A DNA stretch of 64,000 bases from Escherichia coli. GTDB taxonomy: Bacteria > Pseudomonadota > Gammaproteobacteria > Enterobacterales > Enterobacteriaceae. The stretch is from NCBI RefSeq assembly GCF_041248615.1, contig NZ_CP158426.1. The stretch is one strand, 5' to 3'. The stretch's first letter is position 1. Every line of letters starts with the position of its first letter. Below, piece after piece: positions 25,054-57,106 of the stretch. The notes under the pieces were generated by a model that worked only from the letters and a program-made list of their open reading frames with translations, had not been told where the DNA came from and searched no databases. The position numbers were made by a program, and so were the translations under genes.

Positions 25054-25773
25054 TTAATTCGGATAGACAAAATCACGAATTTTCTGCGCGATCTGTTTAT
25101 TCAGTTGACAAATACGGGCTTCGGTTAGCCCTAATACCAGCGCAATCTCTTTGAGATTCATCTCATGCTGGTAATACATGGAGAGGATCAGTTGCTCTTT
25201 TTCGCTTAATAGTGAAAGTGCGTGTTGCAGCATTTGCTGGGTGACAAACTGATCTTCCAGTTCCCTGCCAGCAAGTGGAATGCCTTGCCCTTCGCCGTTC
25301 AGCAGTTCGTCAAGGCTGGCGAGCGTTTCCGCCCCTTCCAGTTGCTGATATTCGAGATAATCTTCATGCGAGATCCCTTCCACGGCCAGTTCTGACCACT
25401 CAGGCTCGTGCCCCAGTTTTTTACGCGTTTCGCGAATCAGGTCTTTCATCTGATGATATTTCTGTCGCAGCTGGCGCGGTCGCCAGTCGAGAGCGCGCAG
25501 CTCATCCAGGATCGCGCCGCGAATACGGTGCACGGCATAGCCCGCAAAACCTTCGTCCGGCAGTCCGTAGCGGCGAATGGCATTAAGCAGCCCCATTAAC
25601 GCCGTTTGTTCCATATCCTGACGATCAATAATGCAATTACACTGCGGGGCAAGTTGCCGCACAACTTTACGCACCAGTGGTAAATAGGCCTGCAAGTAGT
25701 GGCTCTCCTGCTGCGGGGTTAATACCGGCGCGGCAGCAAATTCTTCTGACTCGAATAATACGTCCTGTAGCAT
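25054..25773 (-). CDS. lafS: Flagellar sigma-28 (FliA-like) factor
   Basis: 239 aa with sigma-70 regions 2 and 4. Confidence 0.85.
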   Translation of the reverse strand: MLQDVLFESEEFAAAPVLTPQQESHYLQAYLPLVRKVVRQLAPQCNCIIDRQDMEQTALMGLLNAIRRYGLPDEGFAGYAVHRIRGAILDELRALDWRPRQLRQKYHQMKDLIRETRKKLGHEPEWSELAVEGISHEDYLEYQQLEGAETLASLDELLNGEGQGIPLAGRELEDQFVTQQMLQHALSLLSEKEQLILSMYYQHEMNLKEIALVLGLTEARICQLNKQIAQKIRDFVYPN

Positions 25774-28056: not shown

Positions 28057-29373
28057 TTACGCGAATGCCGCCATGCTGGCTTTCATGGTGTACACCTCGA
28101 CCAGCGTGTTGGTGTACTCCTCGAGATAACGGTCGTAGTTGGCGTTATAGGTATCAGTAAGCTGATCGCCTTCGTCCTGAATTTTGCTCATCTGATCGTC
28201 AATGTTCTGCTGGCGCAGGGTGATGATGCCGTTGCTGGAGTCCGTGTAGGTGTTAATCAGGTCGTCCATCTGCGCTACCATGCTGTTGTCGCCAACGAAA
28301 ATAGAGGTCAGACCGTCAGGATTTTTCGCCATTTCGTCGTTGAACTGGTCGGAGTCAATCTGTAAGTGGCCGTGAGAATCGAGGGTGATGCCATAGTCAA
28401 CAATCGACACGCCGTTGTAGCTGGCATGGGCGATGTCATCGAGCTGGTTCGCCAGTGAACTGAGTCCGGCGTCGCCTGCAAATACCCCGGCGCTGGTACT
28501 GTCATCACCGTGAGTGGTTAGCGAATCAACCGTATCGATCAGGGTGTTATAGGCATCGACAAAGGTCTGCACTTTCTCCTGGCTGGCGCTGGAATCTTCG
28601 CTAATGTTAAAGGTAGTGAGGTCGCTGTCAGAATCGCTGACTTCGGTGAAAGTCATGGTGACGCCGGGGATCACATCATCAAACGTATTGCTGCTGTTGG
28701 TGATCGCCGGGCCCGTGGCGCTACCGAGATGAATAATCGCGTCCTGGGCTGAGGAAACAACCGTGGCAACGGGCGCGCTGGTGCTATCGTTGCTGGCATC
28801 ATGCCCCGTTACGCTCACCGAAAACGCGCTCTGCGCCCCGGTGCTATCGGAGGTGAGCATAATGGTGGTGGTGCCGTCGGTTTTCACCAACGCCGCTGAA
28901 ACGCCTGGATTATCATCGGAGTCGTTAATCGCGTTCACCAGTTCGCTGGCATCGATAAAACCGTCGCCGTCACCGTTCTGATCTGCCGCCGACAGATCGA
29001 TATCCATGGTGCTGTCGCCCATCGTCAGTTCAAAAGTACCGGTAGCGGAAAAGGCGTCGTCGCCCATACTGAACGTGGTTTGCTGCCCCTGCGCCAGTTG
29101 CTCAACGAAAAACGAGTAGCTTCCCGCCTGCGCCTGGGAATTGGCGGAAATGGTCGCCGAGTCATTATTGCTGGTGGCGGCAAAAGTCACCGGGCCGTCG
29201 GTATCGCTGTTCAGCGCGTCAACGGCGCTCTGGAAATCGCTTAACGCCGAGCTGAGCGAGTCCAGGCCGCTGCTTTCAGCGTCCAGCTCGGTCTGCTTCT
29301 CCTGCAAATTTGCCGCCTGGGTGGCGACATCCGCATAAGCAATTTCTTGCGCAATGGTTCTTGGGTTAATCAT
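28057..29373 (-). CDS. lafB: Filament cap protein (FliD/HAP2 homologue)
   Basis: 438 aa, conserved N- and C-terminal heptad regions, Ser/Thr/Asp-rich centre. Confidence 0.75.
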   Translation of the reverse strand: MINPRTIAQEIAYADVATQAANLQEKQTELDAESSGLDSLSSALSDFQSAVDALNSDTDGPVTFAATSNNDSATISANSQAQAGSYSFFVEQLAQGQQTTFSMGDDAFSATGTFELTMGDSTMDIDLSAADQNGDGDGFIDASELVNAINDSDDNPGVSAALVKTDGTTTIMLTSDSTGAQSAFSVSVTGHDASNDSTSAPVATVVSSAQDAIIHLGSATGPAITNSSNTFDDVIPGVTMTFTEVSDSDSDLTTFNISEDSSASQEKVQTFVDAYNTLIDTVDSLTTHGDDSTSAGVFAGDAGLSSLANQLDDIAHASYNGVSIVDYGITLDSHGHLQIDSDQFNDEMAKNPDGLTSIFVGDNSMVAQMDDLINTYTDSSNGIITLRQQNIDDQMSKIQDEGDQLTDTYNANYDRYLEEYTNTLVEVYTMKASMAAFA

Positions 29374-29404
29374 TGATGACTCCGGGTAACGATGTCAGGT
29401 TAAT

Positions 29405-29420
29405 GGCAAAAGGCGTGCCA
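29405..29420 (-). promoter_or_regulatory. Sigma-54 promoter (-24/-12) for lafB operon
   Basis: Reverse strand TGGCAC-GCCTT-TTGCC, perfect GG-N10-GC spacing, ~32 bp upstream of lafB start. Confidence 0.6.
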
Positions 29421-29506
29421 ATATTTTTTATGTGAAAAATCAATAGATTGAAAAACAGGCGGAAATGGTGTTTCCGGTCTGGCGGAAAAAAGCCTGCCGC
29501 TGAAAG

Positions 29507-29567
29507 CACAACACCGCCTGCAGGCGGTGTTGTTCGTGGCCGGATAAGGCGTTTACGCCGCATCGGC
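29507..29567. terminator. Perfect 13-bp-stem palindrome plus REP element downstream of lafA
   Basis: acaacaccgcctg/caggcggtgttgt followed by gccggataaggcgtttacgccgcatcggc. Confidence 0.55.
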
Positions 29568-29577
29568 AAGTCCGCCA

Positions 29578-30492
29578 TTACTGCAGCAGGCTGGAAACCA
29601 TGCTGGACATGCTGTTGGACTGTTTCAGCATGGTGATGCCGGTCTGCATCAGCACCTGCTGTTTGGTCATGTTGGACGCTTCCGTCGCGTAGTCGGTATC
29701 CATGATGTTACCGATAGCGACTTCGGTGTTGTCTTGCATACTGGTCAGGTTGTTGGCAGTGTCGTTCAGACGGTTGATAGAGGCACCCAGCTTGGACTGG
29801 ATCTGAGACACGTCATCCATCGCGGTAGAAATGCTGGTGATCATCTGGTTAGCCGAGCCAGACGCAGTCAGCTCAGTACCGCCAGAAACGCCTGCGGTGC
29901 CCGTGGTGTCAGCCTGATCCGCACTAAAGGAGTTGCTGATAGCAGAAAGATCAGTCACCAGGGTATTCAGCTGGCTTGAAATATTCACGGTCATGGTGTC
30001 GGAAGATTCCGCGCCCACCTGGAAAGTTACCGCGCTCTGGAACAGACCGTCAGTACCGGTGTTGCTGGTGCCGGAAACACCGAACAGGTTGGTGCCGCCG
30101 TAAGTGGTGTTTTGCAGCATGTCAGACATCTGCTGGCCCAGTTCGTCGTATTCGTCCTGCATCGCCTGCAGGTCGTCGTCGCTGTAGGTGCCGTTCGCTG
30201 CCTGAGTTGACAGGTCTTTCATACGACCCAGCACGTCAGACATTTCGTCGAACATGCTGTCGGCGGTTTGCAGCATCGCGGTGGCATCATTGATGTTGCT
30301 CAGCGCAACACCCATACCGCTGGACTGTGCTGTCAGACGGTTAGCAATTTGTTTGCCTGCGGCGTCATCGGCAGAAGAGTTAATCCGGTTACCTGTCGCC
30401 AGGCGTTCCATAGATGTAGACAGAGAAGAGCTGCTTTTGCTGATTGCATTAACGGCAGCCATTGAGGCGTTATTGGTGTTAATAGATAACAT
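29578..30492 (-). CDS. lafA: Lateral flagellin
   Basis: Start at MLSINTNNASM with RBS AAGGAG; conserved flagellin N and C termini; short (~305 aa). Confidence 0.9.
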   Translation of the reverse strand: MLSINTNNASMAAVNAISKSSSSLSTSMERLATGNRINSSADDAAGKQIANRLTAQSSGMGVALSNINDATAMLQTADSMFDEMSDVLGRMKDLSTQAANGTYSDDDLQAMQDEYDELGQQMSDMLQNTTYGGTNLFGVSGTSNTGTDGLFQSAVTFQVGAESSDTMTVNISSQLNTLVTDLSAISNSFSADQADTTGTAGVSGGTELTASGSANQMITSISTAMDDVSQIQSKLGASINRLNDTANNLTSMQDNTEVAIGNIMDTDYATEASNMTKQQVLMQTGITMLKQSNSMSSMVSSLLQ

Positions 30493-41908: not shown

Positions 41909-41945
41909 TTCCTGCGTCACTCCTGCTTCAATCCGCATACGCTAA

Positions 41946-41960
41946 GCAATCGCCGTGCCA
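41946..41960 (-). promoter_or_regulatory. Sigma-54 promoter for lfgB-L operon
   Basis: Reverse strand TGGCAC-GGCGA-TTGC, perfect consensus. Confidence 0.6.
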
Positions 41961-44426: not shown

Positions 44427-45632
44427 TTATACAAAATCTTCATACAGCGTTATTAACTGTGTGATAAAACCCTCTAACGTTAATAATCCCTCCCTGATTT
44501 CCTCCGGATATTTTTTATGAAGAGGGGAAGGTACAACCAAGGTGACACCTTCAGCTCTCATTTCGTTAAATTGAGCAACTGAGACACCCTCTTGTAAGGT
44601 AAACAAATATATTTTGTTGATTTTATTTGCTTCATTGAGTGCCTGACGCCACCGATCCTTACATGTTGTTTTTACAGCAAGCATACGGAGTTTTTCTCTT
44701 GGAAAGTGATCATCATGGTAAGCTGCCGCTGATGGAAAAAGAAAATCGGGTTTCTTTTTTCCTTCAGTAATACATTGAGTAGCAAAATGATGCAGTCCAT
44801 GCTCAATAAAAATTTGCTCAAGATGTAGCTCCAGTGATTTCCCGGCTCGAGATTTTCTTCGATTACTAACAGAGTTAGCCATAGCTATAAAATCATCTAC
44901 AGAACCAAACCCTTGACGGATGATGTCCAGTACGTGAATTTCTTCAACCATTAGAAAGAGATCATATTCAATACGGCGGCGTTCTAAAAGTTGGTCATCT
45001 GGACTGGTTACGCCTGTTGGGTAATAACCCGCAGCATATTGAATAATCTCTAAGCCAGAAGGAAAGCTATGTTTCCAGCTTTCCGGAATAACATATTCCT
45101 TTTGAGAGATTTTTGGCCTTGATGCGAGTACACCAAGTATTTCACTGGCAGGCCCAAACATTAAAGTTCCAGGAATGATCTCCCCAATAGCTGATTCCAG
45201 TACATCCTCTTCTTCTGGGCTAACACAAACCCATACATCAACACTTTTGCTGTCTCTCCCTGGCTCATGTTCAAACGCAAGCACAGACAAAGCACCTGTA
45301 TTTTCCGGATCCTGTAGGGGACTGCCAGCCCCCCACCGAGTGATGCGTTTTTCATTTCTTGTTTGCCCGAAATACTTATTATTGTAGTAAATAGCGCGAA
45401 CCTCACTGTCTACACATTCATGAGAGGAATAAGTTGCGCGCAATAAAACCGAAGGATTTTTTTCTGACGTATGATCTATAGATGGGAAAAGTTCAGCGAC
45501 GATACCAGAAGGGATATATACCCCCACTTGATGCCCTCCTGTTGCACCAGTGTCGTTTGCTGAAAGACGTTTAATATAGAGATAGTTGTTACCACCGACC
45601 TTATCAAGCAGCCAATCTTGTAATCCTGACAT
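44427..45632 (-). CDS. Type IIE restriction endonuclease, EcoRII family
   Basis: 401 aa; N-terminus YIKRLSANDTGATGGHQVG and catalytic domain match recalled R.EcoRII closely. Confidence 0.9.
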   Translation of the reverse strand: MSGLQDWLLDKVGGNNYLYIKRLSANDTGATGGHQVGVYIPSGIVAELFPSIDHTSEKNPSVLLRATYSSHECVDSEVRAIYYNNKYFGQTRNEKRITRWGAGSPLQDPENTGALSVLAFEHEPGRDSKSVDVWVCVSPEEEDVLESAIGEIIPGTLMFGPASEILGVLASRPKISQKEYVIPESWKHSFPSGLEIIQYAAGYYPTGVTSPDDQLLERRRIEYDLFLMVEEIHVLDIIRQGFGSVDDFIAMANSVSNRRKSRAGKSLELHLEQIFIEHGLHHFATQCITEGKKKPDFLFPSAAAYHDDHFPREKLRMLAVKTTCKDRWRQALNEANKINKIYLFTLQEGVSVAQFNEMRAEGVTLVVPSPLHKKYPEEIREGLLTLEGFITQLITLYEDFV

Positions 45633-45728
45633 AAGACATCCTTATTTTTGCATAGTATCCGATTCAGATTTTTCCACATATCCATCAGAACGACCAGAAC
45701 CAACATATCTGAACAAAAAGTAAATATG

Positions 45729-45736
45729 CGATAACG
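45729..45736 (+). promoter_or_regulatory. Possible sigma-28 -35 element (TAAAGTTT) upstream of lfgM; -10 match weak
   Basis: Perfect -35 consensus, but downstream -10 (aaccgctt) matches GCCGATAA at only 4 of 8 positions. Confidence 0.25.
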
Positions 45737-45804
45737 ATTAAAGTTTTGCCGCCTGTTAACCGCTTTACCGGAGTAACCCACCTAAATACCGAGACGAGGT
45801 TGCG

Positions 45805-46080
45805 ATGAAAATCACCCCGACTATGCCAGGCAATCGCCCGACAGTCACAACGGCAGGCTCCAGCCAGCCGCGCAAAGGCACGGCGACCACCACGACGCTA
45901 AGCGCCGACGACATTACCCAGGCGGGATTGCAGTCTGCCCAGCAAACACTGAACGACCAGCAAGAGAGCGATATCGACAGCGATAAAGTGGCGCAAATGC
46001 AGGCGATGCTGGCCTCCGGCAGCCTGCAAGTGGACACCGAACAGTTAGCCAGCGACATGCTGAGTTTTTTCCAGAACTAA
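45805..46080 (+). CDS. lfgM: Anti-sigma-28 factor FlgM homologue
   Basis: 91 aa, conserved C-terminal sigma-28-binding region. Confidence 0.75.
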   Translation: MKITPTMPGNRPTVTTAGSSQPRKGTATTTTLSADDITQAGLQSAQQTLNDQQESDIDSDKVAQMQAMLASGSLQVDTEQLASDMLSFFQN

Positions 46081-46092
46081 GAGGCCGATGAA

Positions 46093-46521
46093 GTGAGTAT
46101 CCGGTTACAACAGGTGAAGGCGTTGTTGCAGGGAATTCGTGACGATGACGCGCTGTATGATTCCCTGCGCGAACTTCTCCAGCGTCAGCGGATCTGCATG
46201 ATTCGCCGCGCCAGCGAAGAGCTGCTGGCGGTAAACGAGGAGATAACCCATCACTATGAGCAGTTGCATGGGCATAGCCATCAGCGGCACAGCCTGCTGA
46301 AAATGCTTAATGTCAGTGTAAATCGTGACGGTCTGGCGCAGGTTTTTGCCTGGCTTCCGGCGGTACAAAAAGCGGCAGCACAACAGTTGTGGCAACGCCT
46401 TGAGCAAAAAGCGGAACGCTGCAAAGCCTACAACGACAAAAACGGCGAGCTGTTGATTCGCCAGTATGAATTTATTCAGTCTTTTTTAGGTAGCGAAGCA
46501 GATTTTCTCTATCAGGAATAA
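46093..46521 (+). CDS. lfgN: FlgN-like export chaperone (GTG start)
   Basis: 142 aa helical protein immediately after flgM homologue. Confidence 0.6.
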   Translation: MSIRLQQVKALLQGIRDDDALYDSLRELLQRQRICMIRRASEELLAVNEEITHHYEQLHGHSHQRHSLLKMLNVSVNRDGLAQVFAWLPAVQKAAAQQLWQRLEQKAERCKAYNDKNGELLIRQYEFIQSFLGSEADFLYQE

Positions 46522-46597
46522 CGCGAATACCTTCCCCATAGCGGAAATGGATTTTCCGCCTGATTCACAATCCTTTGTTTTTGATTATAAAAATTCC

Positions 46598-46613
46598 CGG
46601 CACGCTTATTGCA
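46598..46613 (+). promoter_or_regulatory. Sigma-54 promoter upstream of the unknown 311-aa gene and transferase gene
   Basis: CGGCAC-GCTTA-TTGCA with correct GG-N10-GC spacing; lies inside the ORF-track N-terminus, implying the real start is at 46648. Confidence 0.5.
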
Positions 46614-46647
46614 CATTCCGCAAAGTAATAAAGACTGGAAGCCACCT

Positions 46648-47580
46648 ATGAGTTTTATTGAATGTTACGAACCGGAATACGTGCGCAATTTTATGACGCA
46701 ATATCCCGATTCGCCTTTGTACATCCGCAAGGTGTGGAAAAACGAGATTCGCCAGAGCCTGATGCTGACAGAGCCAGAAAGCTGCGAAGCGGTGCTCAAC
46801 GATGCCAGGGCCTTTGATTTACAGCTCACCTACCGCCCGGCGGAAGATAATGCCGCAGAACTCTCCGCGCGCGATGCGATAGTAAACCAGGTCATTTTGA
46901 GCACCCTTACGCTCCCCGATTTACCCCCGGAGCTTTCACTGTACGCCGTCGGGATTTTGCTCTCCCGCGCCAGCAAAATGCCGGGCAGAGACGGAGATAT
47001 TCTTGCCCGCTTGACGACGCTGCCACAGGCGCTGGCCGATCATGCACAAAAAGGCACGCTACAGGCACAGTTCGCCCAGCTGCCGCCCGTGCCACAGCTG
47101 GCGCGCCAGTTGATGACGCTGCTCGGCAGTTGTGCGTTTGACTGGTCGATTCTGCCGGAAAGCCCGCGCAAAACTTCGCTGCCGTTGCAGATGCCTTTGC
47201 TGGCGCTACATGACGCCAACAGCGAAGCCCTGTTACAACAGCAGCTTCAGGCACAGTGGCAAACCACCTGGCAACAGCATTTTGCCACCGCGCCCTGGAT
47301 GATGCGTAACTGGCTGATTTACCGCGTTTACCATGAGGTGATTGGGCAGGCAGACGGAGCAGATTATTGCCCGCTGGTGTGCGATTTTTATCTTATCCGC
47401 ACGTTAATCAGTTTATGGACGCTGGATGGTTCTCCGCTGCGACAGGAGGATATTTTCGCCCTCTTTGCCATGTTTGAACGCTGGCGAGCCAGTGAAAATG
47501 CTGTGCTGATTCGCCAACAAATTCAGGCTGAACGTTCCGCAGATCCCCTGCTTTATGCGTTTTCACTGCTGTCTTGCTAA
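46648..47580 (+). CDS. Hypothetical protein (311 aa), no recognisable domain; start at MSFIECYEPE
   Basis: ORF with RBS ggaag 7 nt upstream; sits between flgN homologue and the large transferase gene. Confidence 0.5.
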   Translation: MSFIECYEPEYVRNFMTQYPDSPLYIRKVWKNEIRQSLMLTEPESCEAVLNDARAFDLQLTYRPAEDNAAELSARDAIVNQVILSTLTLPDLPPELSLYAVGILLSRASKMPGRDGDILARLTTLPQALADHAQKGTLQAQFAQLPPVPQLARQLMTLLGSCAFDWSILPESPRKTSLPLQMPLLALHDANSEALLQQQLQAQWQTTWQQHFATAPWMMRNWLIYRVYHEVIGQADGADYCPLVCDFYLIRTLISLWTLDGSPLRQEDIFALFAMFERWRASENAVLIRQQIQAERSADPLLYAFSLLSC

Positions 47581-47626
47581 CGCTTTTTGGCCGGTTTTCC
47601 CGGCCTTATCGACTTCGTAAACTATC

Positions 47627-50092
47627 ATGCAAACCCTCATCAAAACACTCGCCACCCAGCGCGAAAAACCGTTCGTCAGCGTCGTCACGCCCACATGGAA
47701 CCGTAGCGCATTCCTGCCGTACCTGCTCTATATGTACCGCTATCAGGACTACCCGGCAGACCGCCGCGAACTGGTCATCCTCGACGACTCGCCGCAAAGC
47801 CATCAGCACATCATCGACCGTTTGACCGATGGCACGCCGGAAGCCTTTAACATCCGCTACATCCATCATCAGGAAAGACTGCCGCTGGGCAAAAAACGCA
47901 ACATGCTCAATGAACTGGCAGTGGGGGAATATATCCTCTGCATGGATGACGACGACTACTACCCGGCAGATAAAATCTCTTACACCATCGCCATAATGCA
48001 AAAACACCGGGCGCTCATCTCCGGTTCCGACCAGATCCCCATCTGGTACAGCCACATCAATCGCATCTTCCAAAGCCGCAGCTTTGGCTCACATAACATC
48101 CTCAACGGCACCTTTTGCTATCACCGTAACTACCTGAAAAAGCACCGTTACGACGATGATTGTAATTTAGGCGAAGAGAAAAGTTTCACCAACAATTTCA
48201 GCGTTAACCCGCTACAACTGCCCGGCGAGCGCACGATTTTGTGTATCTCGCATAGCCACAACACCTTTGATAAAGACTTTATTCTCGGGGCCAGCACGCC
48301 AGTAAACGCGGCGCTTACGGATATCGTCCGCGATCCGCTGCTCCGCAACGCCTATCTGAGTCTGCATAACGCCACTCATCACCAGGCGATCAACCATCAG
48401 GCGATCGATCAGGTCGTACTGATCAATCTGGATAAACGCCCGGATCGCTTACAACAGATCCGTGAAGAACTGGCATTGCTGCATATTCCACCTGAGAAGA
48501 TCACCCGCCTTGCCGCCAGTGAAGATCAAAACGGCCAACGGGGACGACGCCAGTCGCACTTGCAGGCGCTGCGCCTGGCGCAACAGCACGGCTGGCAAAA
48601 CTACCTGCTGCTGGAAGATGACGCGGTTATTCTCAAGCAGGAAAAACATATTCAGGTACTGAACACGCTGCTGGCGAGCCTGGCGAAAATTCCCTGGCAG
48701 GTGATGATCCTTGGCGGCGAAATTTCGCAGGGAACGATGCTAAAAAGTTTGCCGGGGCTGGTGCACGCGCGGGACTGCCGCAAGGTGTGCGCTTATCTGG
48801 TGAACAGCCGCTACTACCCGCAACTGGCGCAGCAGATGAGCAACGATGAGCACTCGCTGGAAGAGTGCTGGCAGCCGCTGCTACACGCCGACAAATGGCT
48901 GGCCTGTTACCCGAGCCTTTGTTACCAGCGACCGGGCTTTAGTGATATCGAGAAAAAAACGACTGACAACATTGCTCACTATTTCAATAAGTTACCCGTA
49001 GCCACCAAGCCATCTACATTACCCATCGCCGATACCATCGGCTTTTTTATGGAAACCTCATTCCACTACGCGCTCTACCGCCCAATCATCACCGCTCTGC
49101 AGGCGCAGGGGCAGAGCTGTACGCTGGTGATCAATGACCGCGTATTTAAACCATTTCTGGATGAAATGCTGGCGACGCTAAAAAGCATTGACGATCCGCA
49201 GCTCAAAGGTATGCGCTTATCTGAAATGCAGGCGCACGGTCAGCGGGTAAAATGCCTGGTCAGCCCCTATCACACGCCCGCGCTCAGTGGCCTGGCAGCG
49301 GTGAACGTCCGCGCCATGTACGGCTTAGCCAAAGAGGCGTGGAACCACGCCGACTGGAATCGTTTTTACCAACGCATTTTGTGTTATAGCCACTACAGCC
49401 AGCAGACACTGGCGCATTTCGGTAGCGCAAAAGTGGTCGGCAATCCACGTTTCGACGCCTGGCATAACGGCACGTTTGCCCGCACTCTGCCGGAAAATAT
49501 TCAACCCGATTCCCGTAAACCTACGGTGCTCTACGCCCCCACGTTTGGCGCATTAAGCTCCCTGCCCCACTGGGCAGAAAAATTGGGGCGCTTAAGCGGT
49601 GATGTGAACCTGATTTGCAAACTGCACCACGGCACCTGCTCGCGCCCGGAAGAAGCTGCATCGCTGGCACTGGCGCGCAGGCATTTAAAACAGCGCACCG
49701 ACTCCGCCCGCCACACGCTGGCGCTACTGGCAAAGGCCGATTACGTGCTGACCGATAACAGCGGCTTTATTTTCGATGCTATCCACGTTGATAAGCGGGT
49801 GATCCTGCTCGACTTTCCGGGCATGAGTGAATTACTCGAAGGCGAGAAAAGCTACTCCACGCCGGAGAGCGCCGATCAGCAAATCCGCGAAATATTGCCG
49901 GTGGCTCATGATATGGCAGAGTTGCGTTACTTGTTGTCAGAGGCGTTTGACTGGGGGGCGGTGCAGGCGCGGCTTACGAAGATTCGTCATCACTATTGCG
50001 ATGCGTTTATGGATGGCAAGGCGGGAGAACGGGCGGCGATGGTGATTGTGGAGGCGCTGGCGGACAAGGAATCGTCAGGGATATGTCGATAA
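47627..50092 (+). CDS. Three-domain transferase: GT2 glycosyltransferase + GT25-like domain + TagF-like CDP-glycerol glycerophosphotransferase domain
   Basis: N-terminal DxD-containing GT2 (CMDDDDYY), central GT25-like (VVLINLDKRPDRL), C-terminal TagF/TagB-type motif (LYAPTFG). Confidence 0.75.
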   Translation: MQTLIKTLATQREKPFVSVVTPTWNRSAFLPYLLYMYRYQDYPADRRELVILDDSPQSHQHIIDRLTDGTPEAFNIRYIHHQERLPLGKKRNMLNELAVGEYILCMDDDDYYPADKISYTIAIMQKHRALISGSDQIPIWYSHINRIFQSRSFGSHNILNGTFCYHRNYLKKHRYDDDCNLGEEKSFTNNFSVNPLQLPGERTILCISHSHNTFDKDFILGASTPVNAALTDIVRDPLLRNAYLSLHNATHHQAINHQAIDQVVLINLDKRPDRLQQIREELALLHIPPEKITRLAASEDQNGQRGRRQSHLQALRLAQQHGWQNYLLLEDDAVILKQEKHIQVLNTLLASLAKIPWQVMILGGEISQGTMLKSLPGLVHARDCRKVCAYLVNSRYYPQLAQQMSNDEHSLEECWQPLLHADKWLACYPSLCYQRPGFSDIEKKTTDNIAHYFNKLPVATKPSTLPIADTIGFFMETSFHYALYRPIITALQAQGQSCTLVINDRVFKPFLDEMLATLKSIDDPQLKGMRLSEMQAHGQRVKCLVSPYHTPALSGLAAVNVRAMYGLAKEAWNHADWNRFYQRILCYSHYSQQTLAHFGSAKVVGNPRFDAWHNGTFARTLPENIQPDSRKPTVLYAPTFGALSSLPHWAEKLGRLSGDVNLICKLHHGTCSRPEEAASLALARRHLKQRTDSARHTLALLAKADYVLTDNSGFIFDAIHVDKRVILLDFPGMSELLEGEKSYSTPESADQQIREILPVAHDMAELRYLLSEAFDWGAVQARLTKIRHHYCDAFMDGKAGERAAMVIVEALADKESSGICR

Positions 50093-50236: not shown

Positions 50237-50641
50237 TCAGTAGGTGGCTGATTTACCCCTAATCACCTCAATAATCCCCGTCGTCGATACCGACGGCGTA
50301 CGGGGAAAATAGACCACCTCACAGACACACGAGAAATCGTCAAACTTCCCTGCCCAGTCATCACCCATCACTAAAATATCCGCACCGTACCCCCGCAAAT
50401 ACTCCGCTTTCTGCTCCAGCGATTCCTCCAGAAATACGCCATCCACGCACGCCAGCCCGGCGATAATCGCCATGCGGTCATCCTGATGGTAAACCGGTGC
50501 CCTGCCCTTTTTGGCGATGTTCAGGGCGTCGGACGATACGCCGACCAGCAGCCGCTCGCCCAGCTTGCGGGCGCGTTGTAAAAGGCGCAGATGACCGACG
50601 TGAAACACATCGAAGGTGCCGAAGGTGATGACCGTTTTCAT
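50237..50641 (-). CDS. Glycerol-3-phosphate cytidylyltransferase (TagD-like), makes CDP-glycerol
   Basis: FGTFDVFHVGHLRLL (HxGH) and RTPSVSTTGI motifs; start at MKTVITFG two nt after lfiJ stop. Confidence 0.8.
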   Translation of the reverse strand: MKTVITFGTFDVFHVGHLRLLQRARKLGERLLVGVSSDALNIAKKGRAPVYHQDDRMAIIAGLACVDGVFLEESLEQKAEYLRGYGADILVMGDDWAGKFDDFSCVCEVVYFPRTPSVSTTGIIEVIRGKSATY

Positions 50642-56119: not shown

Positions 56120-57106
56120 TCAGGAGAAAACTTCGATACCTTGCTTGCGCATGGAGGCCAGTCGATAGCGCAGTGCGCGCGGGGTAATGCCTAACAGGTC
56201 GGCAATTTTGCTGCGGTTGCCCTGATATTTACGCATCAGGTCGGCGATATATTGATACTGGGCGCTACGTCCGGCCTGGCCTAAATCGCTGGTTTCCGCA
56301 ACAGATACGGAGGGCTGAACAGGCCATTGCAGTTCACTGTGATCGGCAACGTCTATTTCCGGCAGGCCTAAGGCATCCGGGAAAATCACGCCGTCGCGAT
56401 TTAAAATCATTCCACGCTGAATGGCGTTCTCCAGCTGGCGCACGTTGCCGGGCCAGCGGTAATTGAGCAGCGCCCGGCGAGTAGATTCTGAAAGGGTGAT
56501 ATTTTTCACCAGCACTGTGGAGTATTTTTTAATAAATGACTCTGCCAGCGGGATAATATCGTTCAGGCGTTCACGCAGCGGCGGCATGGTAATAGGAATA
56601 ACCGCCAGACGATAATAGAGATCTTCACGAAAACGCCCGGCGGCGACTTCCTGCTCAAGGTTTTTATTGGTGCAGGCAATCAGGCGAAAATTGAGTTTAA
56701 TTTGTCGGTTACTGCCTAATCGCTCAACCTGCTGTTCCTGCAATACGCGTAATATTTTGGCCTGTAGCGCCAGCGGCATATCGCCAATTTCATCGAGCAA
56801 TAAGGTGCCGTTATTCGCCAGTTCCATTTTTCCTGGCACGCTGGCAATTGCGCCGGTAAATGCGCCTTTGTCGTAGCCAAATAAGGTAGATTCCAGCATG
56901 TTTTCCGGGATCGCCGCGCAGTTCACGCCGATATAGGGCGCGTTATCATTTTCACCAAAGGCTACGGTGTGAATATATTTCGCCACGCATTCTTTGCCCG
57001 CGCCGGTTTCGCCCTGAATGAGCACCGGCACGTTAAATGCGGCGACACGCTTTGCCAGAGTAAAAGCGTTAATGCTGGAAGCGGCAGTTGCAATAAGTTC
57101 AGACAT
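56120..57106 (-). CDS. lafK: Sigma-54-dependent transcriptional activator lacking an N-terminal receiver domain
   Basis: AAA+ domain with Walker A (GETGAGKE) and GAFTGA motif, C-terminal HTH; only 328 aa, in-frame stop upstream. Confidence 0.8.
   Translation of the reverse strand: MSELIATAASSINAFTLAKRVAAFNVPVLIQGETGAGKECVAKYIHTVAFGENDNAPYIGVNCAAIPENMLESTLFGYDKGAFTGAIASVPGKMELANNGTLLLDEIGDMPLALQAKILRVLQEQQVERLGSNRQIKLNFRLIACTNKNLEQEVAAGRFREDLYYRLAVIPITMPPLRERLNDIIPLAESFIKKYSTVLVKNITLSESTRRALLNYRWPGNVRQLENAIQRGMILNRDGVIFPDALGLPEIDVADHSELQWPVQPSVSVAETSDLGQAGRSAQYQYIADLMRKYQGNRSKIADLLGITPRALRYRLASMRKQGIEVFS

What the first reader, a model, noticed from the sequence alone, without database searches (positions are those of the whole stretch)
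46598..47580. Unknown 311-aa protein placed directly behind a sigma-54 promoter
A near-consensus sigma-54 promoter (CGGCAC-N5-TTGCA) lies about 35 bp upstream of an ATG with a good RBS, forcing reassignment of the ORF start from 46609 to 46648. The encoded protein has no motif I can recognise and is followed by the large transferase gene. It is a candidate novel flagellar modification or assembly factor co-regulated with class-2 flagellar genes.
Basis: partly seen in the sequence, partly recalled or inferred. Interest (0 to 1): 0.45.

Follow-up and report, generated by a model that had tools for sequence, protein, structure and literature searches.

The report
LafV: FliB relative lacking iron-sulfur domain
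The "unknown" protein is LafV, a known gene of the second (lateral, Flag-2) flagellar locus of E. coli; it is related to the Salmonella flagellin methylase FliB but lacks the whole iron-sulfur domain that FliB needs to work, so its database label "lysine-N-methylase" is doubtful.

Summary
The sequence observation holds. CGGCAC-N5-TTGCA lies at 46598-46613, GGAAG at 46637-46641 and ATG at 46648. The ORF runs 46648-47580 and encodes 310 aa, not 311.

The gene is not new. The window is the E. coli Flag-2 locus, and this is lafV, present in 1278 of 5426 complete E. coli genomes and catalogued in the literature as a predicted FliB-like methylase.

The sigma-54 core (GGCAY-N5-TTGCW) recurs upstream of lafV in 7 of 8 independent loci from different species and genera, while the flanking sequence has diverged. 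The locus also encodes the sigma-54 activator LafK.

LafV aligns only with FliB residues 112-401 (hhalign probability 100). It has none of FliB's 8 invariant cysteines, including the CX4CX3CC motif that binds the essential [4Fe-4S] cluster, and it scores below NCBI's FliB cut-off.

LafV-type genes sit beside an orthologous GT2 glycosyltransferase in 10 of 11 loci. The cognate flagellin LafA has no lysine between residues 93 and 233 and is rich in Ser/Thr.

My best reading, which is an inference, is that LafV is a non-catalytic partner in lateral-flagellin glycosylation rather than a methylase. The gene is already known; interest is modest.

The parts
46598..46613 (+). Sigma-54 (-24/-12) promoter candidate CGGCACGCTTATTGCA. 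The predicted transcription start is about 46624, giving a 5' UTR of about 24 nt.
   Evidence: The core GGCA[CT]-N5-TTGC[AT] is conserved at the same place in L003, L004, L006, L007, L008, L014 and L016.
46637..46641 (+). Shine-Dalgarno-like GGAAG, 6 nt before the ATG.
   Evidence: A GGGA/GGAA block is aligned at this place in the orthologous loci.
46648..47580 (+). lafV coding sequence, 310 aa. It is a FliB_C-only protein with no Fe-S cysteine motif.
46541..46559 (+). Stem-loop GCGGAAA-tggat-TTTCCGC, 20 nt after the lfgN stop codon and upstream of the promoter. It may mark the end of the lfgMN transcript.
   Evidence: The stem sequence differs between loci but pairing is kept. There is no T-run, and the fold z-score of the surrounding region is 0, so this is weak evidence.
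47589..47605 (+). GC-rich stem-loop GGCCGG-ttttc-CCGGCC between lafV and the glycosyltransferase gene. It is a possible partial terminator or mRNA stabiliser.
   Evidence: The stem is present with compensatory changes in 6 loci. A T-run follows in the Citrobacter rodentium and Phytobacter loci but not in E. coli.
47627..50092 (+). 821-aa multidomain glycosyltransferase. The GT2 domain covers residues 18-132, and the C-terminal third gives a weak match to the TagF-like glycerophosphotransferase family. It is the conserved neighbour of lafV.
50237..50641 (-). 134-aa cytidylyltransferase-like protein (PF01467), part of the same modification island.
46093..46521 (+). lfgN, the FlgN export chaperone and upstream neighbour of lafV.
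56120..57106 (-). lafK, a sigma-54 enhancer-binding protein with AAA+ Sigma54_activat and HTH_8 domains and no receiver domain. It is the presumed activator of the lafV promoter.
   Evidence: The link to this particular promoter is an inference.
29578..30492 (-). lafA, the lateral flagellin of 304 aa and the presumed target of the modification island. It has 6 Lys, none between residues 93 and 233; a central 96-residue stretch (residues 130-225) contains 33 Ser/Thr.

Best explanation
SHOWN. The ORF is lafV of the E. coli Flag-2 (lateral flagella) locus. Its product is homologous to residues 112-401 of the flagellin lysine methyltransferase FliB (the FliB_C domain) and to FliB's first N-terminal strand. 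The roughly 90 residues in between, a YkgJ-like cysteine-cluster domain, are absent, and none of the 8 cysteines invariant in FliB is present. A conserved -24/-12 element lies 34 nt upstream of the start codon. The locus encodes the sigma-54 activator LafK.

INFERRED. lafV is transcribed from its own LafK/sigma-54-dependent promoter, like the hook-basal-body operon lfgB-L. The downstream GT2 glycosyltransferase is reached by read-through past a weak hairpin.

INFERRED, the mechanism I commit to. LafV is no longer a [4Fe-4S] methylase. It keeps the helical FliB_C body, which I propose to be the part of FliB that engages flagellin, although no experiment has mapped flagellin binding to it. It works as a non-catalytic partner of the adjacent GT2 enzyme, presenting the Ser/Thr-rich, lysine-poor lateral flagellin LafA for O-glycosylation in the cytoplasm before export.
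For: Identity. The region is 100% identical to E. coli chromosomes, with full Flag-2 synteny. LafV is described in PMC6993521.

Homology. NCBIfam FliB gives E=5.7e-12 over profile positions 105-364 only. hhalign of LafV against FliB gives probability 100 and E=3.9e-40, aligning LafV 29-309 with FliB 112-401. The N-terminal strand YEPEYVRxF is shared, and P9 is invariant in all 34 sequences.

Loss of the catalytic cofactor site. The FliB invariants C17, C22, C26, C27, C79, C88, C103 and C125 are all absent from LafV. The C17A/C22A/C26A/C27A mutant of FliB loses its [4Fe-4S] cluster and all methylation activity (PMC8598068). All 55 long relatives carry CX4CX3CC and none of the 38 short ones does. 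Five long forms tested pass the FliB cut-off with 157-286 bits against 85; five short forms score 52-81 bits, below it, and a sixth has no match. LafV itself scores 45.8 bits.

Functional gene. pN is far below pS against six other loci, and omega is 0.22 within E. coli. The AlphaFold2 model is confident, with pLDDT 89 and pTM 0.90.

Coupling to GT2. An orthologous GT2 (38-94% identity) lies directly next to the short FliB_C gene in 10 of 11 loci, and in two of these the gene order is reversed. By contrast, in flag-1 loci full-length fliB and glycosylation islands are mutually exclusive in all but 2 strains (PMC4875605).

Substrate. LafA has no lysine in residues 93-233 and 33 Ser/Thr in its central 96 residues. 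A set of 100 LafA homologues has a median of 7 Lys in total and 0-4 in the central region. FliB methylates up to 16-18 exposed D2/D3 lysines (PMC7181671).

Promoter. LafK has a Sigma54_activat domain with E=2e-64.
Against: No experiment bears on LafV. Nothing shown here demonstrates binding to LafA or to the glycosyltransferase.

The most conserved FliB_C motif (N-Y-L-x-Y-R-x-Y-H) is kept in LafV. That would also fit a retained catalytic or SAM-binding site.

The role of the FliB cluster is not fully understood. The quadruple Cys mutant might simply be misfolded, so a cluster-free methylase is not excluded.

LafV does not co-vary with LafA. LafA is identical in two strains whose LafV proteins differ by 13%. 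LafA is 86-92% conserved between genera in which LafV is only 55-57% identical. That is not what a tight substrate-recognition module would predict.

A terminator-like hairpin separates lafV from the GT gene, so strict co-expression is not assured.

Some LafA homologues do have 1-4 central lysines.
Confidence: 0.45

Rival explanations
1. LafV is what RefSeq and the literature call it: a flagellin lysine-N-methylase acting on LafA, using SAM bound in the FliB_C domain and needing no iron-sulfur cluster.
For: There is clear homology to FliB over 280 residues. The strongest FliB_C motif, NYLxYRxYH, is retained. Purifying selection is evident. FliB produces SAH as an ordinary methyl transfer would (PMC8598068). 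LafV is annotated this way in PMC6993521.
Against: LafV has 0 of the 8 invariant FliB cysteines. The CX4CX3CC cluster is essential for FliB activity. LafV scores 45.8 bits against the equivalog cut-off of 85. LafA offers no lysine in its central, presumably exposed segment. LafV is always paired with a GT2, whereas true fliB and glycosylation islands exclude each other. The model shows no Rossmann or SET methyltransferase fold and has no PDB fold match.
Confidence: 0.2
2. LafV is an enzyme of the glycan pathway rather than an adaptor, for example one that modifies the sugar or its glycerol-phosphate decoration, or it acts on another flagellar protein by chemistry unrelated to that of FliB.
For: It is a conserved neighbour of GT2, TagF-like and cytidylyltransferase genes. 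Polar residues are invariant within the LafV subfamily. It evolves faster than the flagellin, as glycan-pathway genes in variable islands tend to do.
Against: No catalytic family, fold or cofactor motif is detectable. The only homology is to the non-cluster part of a protein-modifying enzyme.
Confidence: 0.15
3. The sigma-54 motif is not the working promoter, and lafV is mainly transcribed by read-through from the lfgMN promoter or promoters.
For: No strong intrinsic terminator follows lfgN. In locus L005 the lfgN-lafV gap is only 20 nt and the motif is absent. Motif counts in the window are only weakly above chance.
Against: The core motif is conserved in 7 of 8 independent loci, including a perfect TGGCAC-N5-TTGCA in the most distant one, while the flanks are diverged. 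It is one of only two top-scoring intergenic sites in the locus, the other being the lfgB promoter. A structurally conserved hairpin sits between lfgN and the motif.
Confidence: 0.15
4. LafV is a decaying remnant of fliB with no present function.
For: It has lost a whole domain. It is the fastest-evolving gene of the locus, at 89.3% nucleotide identity against 93-98% for the others, and has the highest omega in the locus at 0.22. Many E. coli Flag-2 loci carry defects; for example, the GT gene is a pseudogene in strain YSP8-1.
Against: The reading frame is intact at a constant length of about 310 aa across many genera down to 40% identity, with 62 invariant positions. pN is far below pS. The fold is confidently predicted. 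The gene has its own conserved promoter and RBS.
Confidence: 0.05

Closest known systems
FliB, flagellin lysine-N-methyltransferase of Salmonella enterica (NCBIfam NF038110; [4Fe-4S]/SAM enzyme, PMC8598068)
   Same: The roughly 280-residue C-terminal helical domain (FliB_C, PF27117) and the first N-terminal strand are homologous. Both genes lie in flagellar loci and are linked to flagellin modification.
   Different: LafV lacks FliB residues ~17-111 (the YkgJ/PF03692-like domain) and all 8 invariant cysteines, so it has no site for the essential [4Fe-4S] cluster. It falls below the family cut-off. It is paired with a glycosyltransferase, whereas fliB stands alone. Its cognate flagellin is lysine-poor.
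LafV1-LafV10 of enterobacterial flag-2 loci (De Maayer et al. 2020, PMC6993521; I recall the gene being named by Ren et al. 2005, a paper I could not read here)
   Same: This ORF is a member: about 311 aa, in variable region 1 between lfiJ and lfgN, next to 'GT2-1' (828 aa). The supplement lists LafV6 (311 aa, 219 strains) and GT2-1 (222 strains) with nearly equal counts. Which numbered LafV group this protein belongs to was not tested.
   Different: There is no difference in the gene. The published functional label, N-lysine methylase, predates the FliB iron-sulfur work. In the text I could search it does not mention the missing cysteine domain.
Short FliB_C proteins with a CxCxxC motif (24 of 98 full-size relatives; e.g. 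P0103, P0116, P0129)
   Same: They have the same length class, the same deletion relative to FliB, and the same placement next to the orthologous GT2 in flag-2-type loci.
   Different: They keep three clustered cysteines plus the equivalent of C125, so a 4-Cys metal site is possible. The E. coli-type LafV keeps none of these.
Flagellin glycosyltransferases that carry their own helical substrate-binding module, such as FlmG of Caulobacter and GmaR of Listeria, each a TPR domain plus a GT domain (from my own knowledge, not checked here)
   Same: They offer a functional analogy for the proposed mechanism: a helical, non-catalytic module recognises flagellin and a GT domain modifies Ser/Thr.
   Different: No sequence or fold relationship has been shown. 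In those proteins the module is fused to the enzyme, whereas LafV is a separate polypeptide. This is a lead only.

Membership tests
FliB flagellin lysine-N-methylase (NF038110 equivalog) | Whole-protein score at or above the curated cut-off of 85 bits | tested here: not met
   LafV scores 45.8 bits and matches only profile positions 105-364 of 373. Five full-length relatives score 157-286 bits. Five short relatives score 52-81 bits, and a sixth has no match.
FliB flagellin lysine-N-methylase (NF038110 equivalog) | N-terminal CX4CX3CC motif (C17, C22, C26, C27) that binds the [4Fe-4S] cluster required for activity | tested here: not met
   The motif is absent. LafV cysteines are at positions 6, 46, 162, 241, 245 and 310. 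The alignment shows the segment is deleted. The requirement for the motif comes from PMC8598068.
FliB flagellin lysine-N-methylase (NF038110 equivalog) | Four further invariant cysteines (C79, C88, C103, C125) | tested here: not met
   These are invariant in 20 FliB sequences. None is present in LafV.
FliB flagellin lysine-N-methylase (NF038110 equivalog) | FliB_C helical domain | tested here: met
   hhalign gives probability 100 and E=3.9e-40, aligning LafV 29-309 with FliB 112-401. Homologues carry a precomputed PF27117 FliB_C hit.
FliB flagellin lysine-N-methylase (NF038110 equivalog) | A cognate flagellin with many surface-exposed lysines | tested here: not met
   LafA has 6 Lys, none in residues 93-233. 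Its homologues have 0-4 central Lys. FliC and FljB carry up to 16-18 methylated sites.
FliB flagellin lysine-N-methylase (NF038110 equivalog) | SAM-dependent methylation of flagellin lysines | not testable with these tools
   This needs biochemistry or mass spectrometry.
LafV (FliB_C-only proteins of flag-2 variable region 1) | About 300-318 aa, with FliB-like sequence and no other domain | tested here: met
   LafV is 310 aa. The family is defined in PMC6993521 supplement table.
LafV (FliB_C-only proteins of flag-2 variable region 1) | Location between lfgN and lfiJ in a Flag-2 locus | tested here: met
   The order is lfgN, lafV, GT, cytidylyltransferase, lfiJ.
LafV (FliB_C-only proteins of flag-2 variable region 1) | An adjacent orthologous GT2 glycosyltransferase (an association found here, not part of the published definition) | tested here: met
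   Seen in 10 of 11 loci. GT2 identity is 38-94%.
Sigma-54 (RpoN) dependent promoter | GG at -24 and GC at -12 with the exact spacing and a near-consensus context | tested here: met
   CGGCACG-CTTA-TTGCA matches 11 of 12 positions.
Sigma-54 (RpoN) dependent promoter | Intergenic position, correct strand, short distance to a start codon | tested here: met
   The element ends 34 nt before ATG 46648. It is one of two such intergenic sites in the 41-kb locus.
Sigma-54 (RpoN) dependent promoter | Conservation in orthologous loci beyond the background level | tested here: met
   Seen in 7 of 8 independent loci, from E. coli to a 34%-identical LafV locus.
Sigma-54 (RpoN) dependent promoter | A cognate enhancer-binding protein is available | tested here: met
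   LafK has Sigma54_activat (E=2e-64) and HTH_8 domains. Its binding site is unknown.
Sigma-54 (RpoN) dependent promoter | A transcription start that depends on RpoN and on the activator | not testable with these tools
   This needs 5' RACE or RNA-seq in rpoN and lafK mutants.

The most novel reading that the evidence does not exclude
LafV is a pseudoenzyme. It descends from the radical-type methylase FliB, shed its iron-sulfur catalytic domain, and was re-used as a stand-alone flagellin-recognition or chaperone-like subunit for a GT2 O-glycosyltransferase. On this reading, the 'methylase' gene in about 58% of enterobacterial Flag-2 loci marks glycosylation rather than methylation. The three architectures found here would form an evolutionary series of this loss: 8-Cys FliB, then 4-Cys CxCxxC forms, then Cys-free LafV.
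Probability: 0.35. Interest if true: 0.55.

Novelty: already known. Interest (0 to 1): 0.3.

Why it matters
The gene, its family and its flagellar context are already published, so the finding as it was written is not a discovery.

What may be useful is the correction. The label 'lysine-N-methylase' is being propagated to over a thousand E. coli genomes and to about 58% of enterobacterial Flag-2 loci, for a protein that lacks the cofactor site shown in 2021 to be indispensable for FliB.

If LafV proves to be a glycosylation partner, statements that lateral flagellins are commonly methylated would need revising. LafV would also be a natural separation-of-function variant, showing what the structurally uncharacterised FliB_C domain does on its own.

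The conserved sigma-54 element adds lafV to the predicted LafK regulon.

Tried and rejected
1. Co-evolution of LafV with the flagellin. Rejected: LafA is identical in two E. coli strains whose LafV differs by 13%. LafA is 86-92% conserved across genera in which LafV is only 55-57% identical.

2. An Fe-S domain supplied in trans from within the locus. A six-frame regex scan for C-x(2-5)-C-x(2-4)-CC found no real ORF in the Flag-2 region. The only genuine hit is ykgJ at 1055-1384, a core E. coli gene 45 kb away, so this was not pursued.

4. The local Pfam copy gave no hit for LafV.

5. Sigma-70 promoter and terminator scans of 45600-47800 found no promoter-like site and nothing relevant in the two intergenic regions.

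6. Rfam at E<=1 over 45600-47800 gave only two sub-threshold chance matches.

7. The thermodynamic signal of the post-lfgN hairpin region had a z-score of 0.0. Only the comparative evidence supports this hairpin.

8. Ren et al. 2005, the original Flag-2 paper as I recall it, could not be retrieved by DOI or by a guessed PMC id. I therefore cannot say whether that paper already reported this sigma-54 site.

Full report
OBSERVATION. CGGCACGCTTATTGCA occupies 46598-46613, GGAAG 46637-46641, ATG 46648-46650 and TAA 47578-47580. The mechanical ORF begins at TTG 46609, which is simply the TTG of the -12 element. The ATG start is confirmed by sixteen homologues that all begin MSxIECYEPEFVR and by the RefSeq CDS calls. 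The product is 310 aa, because 311 codons include the stop. An 821-aa glycosyltransferase follows at 47627-50092.

WHAT THE WINDOW IS. The 1.3 kb around the ORF is 100% identical to two E. coli chromosomes, and the gene is present in 1278 of 5426 complete E. coli genomes. The surrounding annotation is the complete Flag-2 (lateral flagella) locus, running lafU...lafA, lfgL-B, lfgAMN, this ORF, a glycosyltransferase, a cytidylyltransferase, lfiJ-E, lafK, lfiM-R, lfhBA. RefSeq calls the ORF 'lysine-N-methylase' in some strains and 'hypothetical protein' in most. The literature knows it as LafV. De Maayer et al. [quoted passage not shown] So the gene is not novel.

RELATION TO FliB. The local Pfam copy finds nothing. 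NCBIfam's FliB equivalog model matches at E=5.7e-12, but with only 45.8 bits against a cut-off of 85, and only over profile positions 105-364 of 373. Homologues carry a precomputed PF27117 'FliB_C' hit.

A profile search of 1.8 billion representatives returned 147 relatives in two size classes. Among the 98 hits of at least 270 aa, three groups stand out:
- 55 long proteins (380-450 aa) all carry CX4CX3CC near residue 17.
- 24 short proteins (about 300-325 aa) carry CxCxxC.
- 14 short proteins, including the E. coli type, have no cysteine motif.

Five long forms tested pass the FliB cut-off with 157-286 bits. Five short forms score 52-81 bits, below it, and a sixth has no match. Profile-profile comparison gives probability 100 and E=3.9e-40 for LafV 29-309 against FliB 112-401. 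The three-class alignment shows that LafV keeps FliB's first strand (YEPEYVRxF, with P9 invariant in all 34 sequences) and then skips about 90 residues. That skipped segment weakly matches PF03692 (CxxCxxCC, the YkgJ family) in FliB.

Twenty FliB sequences have exactly eight invariant cysteines: C17, C22, C26, C27, C79, C88, C103 and C125. LafV has none of them; its cysteines are at 6, 46, 162, 241, 245 and 310. Wang et al. 2021 showed that C17, C22, C26 and C27 bind an oxygen-sensitive [4Fe-4S] cluster, and that the quadruple mutant loses both cluster and methylation activity (PMC8598068). On the defining features of the FliB family, LafV therefore fails, although it is unquestionably a homologue of the C-terminal domain.

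CONTEXT. In eleven loci that carry a short FliB_C gene, an orthologous GT2 glycosyltransferase (38-94% identical to the E. coli enzyme over its first ~460 residues) lies directly beside it in ten. In two of those ten the order is reversed, GT2 then FliB_C. In the eleventh a GT2 lies 1.7 kb away behind its own sigma-54 motif. Cytidylyltransferase and TagF-like glycerophosphotransferase genes or domains recur nearby.

In flag-1 loci, by contrast, full-length fliB and glycosylation islands are mutually exclusive apart from two strains (PMC4875605). The published counts of LafV6 (219 strains) and GT2-1 (222 strains) are almost equal.

SUBSTRATE. The lateral flagellin LafA (304 aa) has six lysines, at positions 19, 47, 92, 234, 277 and 290. 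All lie near the termini and none lies in residues 93-233. A central 96-residue stretch (residues 130-225) contains 33 Ser/Thr. One hundred LafA homologues have a median of 7 lysines, with 0-4 in the central region. FliB methylates up to 16-18 exposed lysines of the D2/D3 domains of Salmonella flagellins (PMC7181671). LafA looks like an O-glycosylation substrate, not a poly-lysine-methylation substrate.

EVOLUTION. lafV is under purifying selection. pN is 0.23-0.41 against pS of 0.68-0.72 versus six other loci, and omega is 0.22 within E. coli. It is nonetheless the fastest-evolving gene of the locus, at 89.3% nucleotide identity against 93-98% for every other gene. Between E. coli and E. fergusonii the flanks are 92-99% identical, while lafV and its promoter region drop to 53-75%. 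This forms a sharp divergence island with saturated dS, which implies allelic replacement. LafA does not follow this pattern: it is identical in strains whose LafV differs by 13%.

PROMOTER. Motif counts in the window are only weakly above chance, but the context is persuasive. Across the 41-kb locus the three best matches to TGGCACG-N4-TTGCW are these:
- 41945-41960(-), upstream of lfgB, 12 of 12 positions.
- 46598-46613(+), upstream of lafV, 11 of 12 positions.
- 29405-29420(-), ending 31 nt upstream of lafB, 11 of 12 positions.

GGCA[CT]-N5-TTGC[AT] is found at the equivalent place upstream of lafV in a second E. coli allele, E. fergusonii, C. rodentium, a C. braakii-like strain, Phytobacter and two unnamed enterobacterial contigs. 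One of those has a perfect TGGCACAGCGATTGCA and a LafV only 34% identical to this one. The surrounding intergenic sequence is largely diverged. The one exception, L005, has only 20 nt between lfgN and lafV.

LafK in the window is an enhancer-binding protein without a receiver domain; its Sigma54_activat hit has E=2e-64 and it also has HTH_8. A stem-loop with compensatory changes follows lfgN at 46541-46559. Another separates lafV from the GT gene at 47589-47605, and in Citrobacter and Phytobacter it carries a T-run like an intrinsic terminator. I therefore infer that lafV has its own LafK/sigma-54 promoter, and that the GT gene is expressed by partial read-through. None of this is shown experimentally.

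MECHANISM AND RIVALS. My best-supported reading (confidence about 0.45) is that LafV is a FliB derivative that lost catalysis and now serves the neighbouring GT2 enzyme in O-glycosylation of LafA, plausibly by binding the flagellin. The main rival (0.2) is that it is still a lysine methylase that works without a cluster. The retained NYLxYRxYH motif and the uncertain role of the FliB cluster keep this possibility alive. Other rivals are an enzymatic role in glycan tailoring (0.15) and a decaying relic (0.05). The lack of LafV-LafA co-variation is a real weakness of the adaptor idea.

VERDICT. The one point worth carrying forward is that the current functional label conflicts with the 2021 FliB biochemistry.

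LIMITS. The original 2005 Flag-2 paper was not retrievable. The AlphaFold database fold library was unavailable. Protein-protein interfaces could not be evaluated with these tools.

Noticed in passing
[not shown]
   Followed up: partly
window 29405-29420 (-): A sigma-54-like site, TGGCACGCCTTTTGCC (11 of 12), ends 31 nt upstream of the lafB (fliD-like) start. It lies inside a 65-aa 'hypothetical' ORF (29366-29563). It may be the promoter of the lafB...lafS...lafU operon, in which case the small ORF call is doubtful.
   Followed up: no
window 41945-41960 (-): A perfect sigma-54 consensus, TGGCACGGCGATTGCT, lies in the 81-nt lfgB-lfgA intergenic region upstream of lfgB. It is conserved in every related locus fetched that contains this region.
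   Followed up: partly
window ~46550-47680 compared with L004 (E. fergusonii): There is a sharp divergence island. lafV and its promoter are 53-75% identical in nucleotides, while lfgM/N and the glycosyltransferase on either side are 92-99% identical. dS for lafV is saturated (about 2) against 0.15-0.20 for the neighbours. This points to allelic replacement of lafV alone.
   Followed up: partly
window 47627-50092 (+) and 50237-50641 (-): The 821-aa transferase appears to have three modules: GT2 at residues 18-132, a faint GT25-like stretch near residue 260, and a weak match to CDP-glycerol glycerophosphotransferase at residues ~600-730. A TagD-like cytidylyltransferase is its neighbour. Together these suggest a glycan carrying glycerol phosphate on the lateral flagellin.
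   Followed up: partly
window 47589-47605; L003, L007, L008, L006, L004 equivalents: The hairpin between lafV and the GT gene keeps its pairing through compensatory changes. It is followed by T7-T9 runs in C. rodentium and Phytobacter but not in E. coli, so it may be a partial terminator that sets the LafV:GT ratio.
   Followed up: partly
L014 20931-21108 (E. coli YSP8-1): In this strain the lafV-GT spacer is about 178 nt, against 46 nt in the window, and contains G/C-rich inverted repeats (CCCTCTCCC...GGGAGAGGG). The GT gene is annotated as a pseudogene with an internal stop.
   Followed up: no
window 1055-1384 (+): This is ykgJ, a stand-alone 109-aa CxxCxxCC (PF03692-type) cysteine-cluster protein. 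It belongs to the same domain family that FliB has at its N-terminus and LafV lacks. It is 45 kb away and a core E. coli gene, so this is probably a coincidence.
   Followed up: no
window 25270-25284 (-): The third exact GGCAY-N5-TTGCW match in the window lies inside lafS (the lateral sigma-28 gene), about 230 nt upstream of the motA-like gene. It could be chance or an internal promoter.
   Followed up: no
L011 6001-7218: The full-length (405 aa, CX4CX3CC) FliB relative closest to LafV, P0114, is not in a flagellar locus. It sits between an epmB-like radical-SAM gene with efp on one side and a groES-like (Cpn10) gene on the other. FliB-type enzymes may therefore have non-flagellin targets.
   Followed up: no
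P0096-P0186 (24 proteins); L012 6001-6975, L013 1045-1947: A second short FliB_C class carries CxCxxC plus the equivalent of FliB C125, four cysteines that could form a minimal metal site. It is intermediate between FliB and the Cys-free LafV and also lies next to the orthologous GT2.
   Followed up: partly
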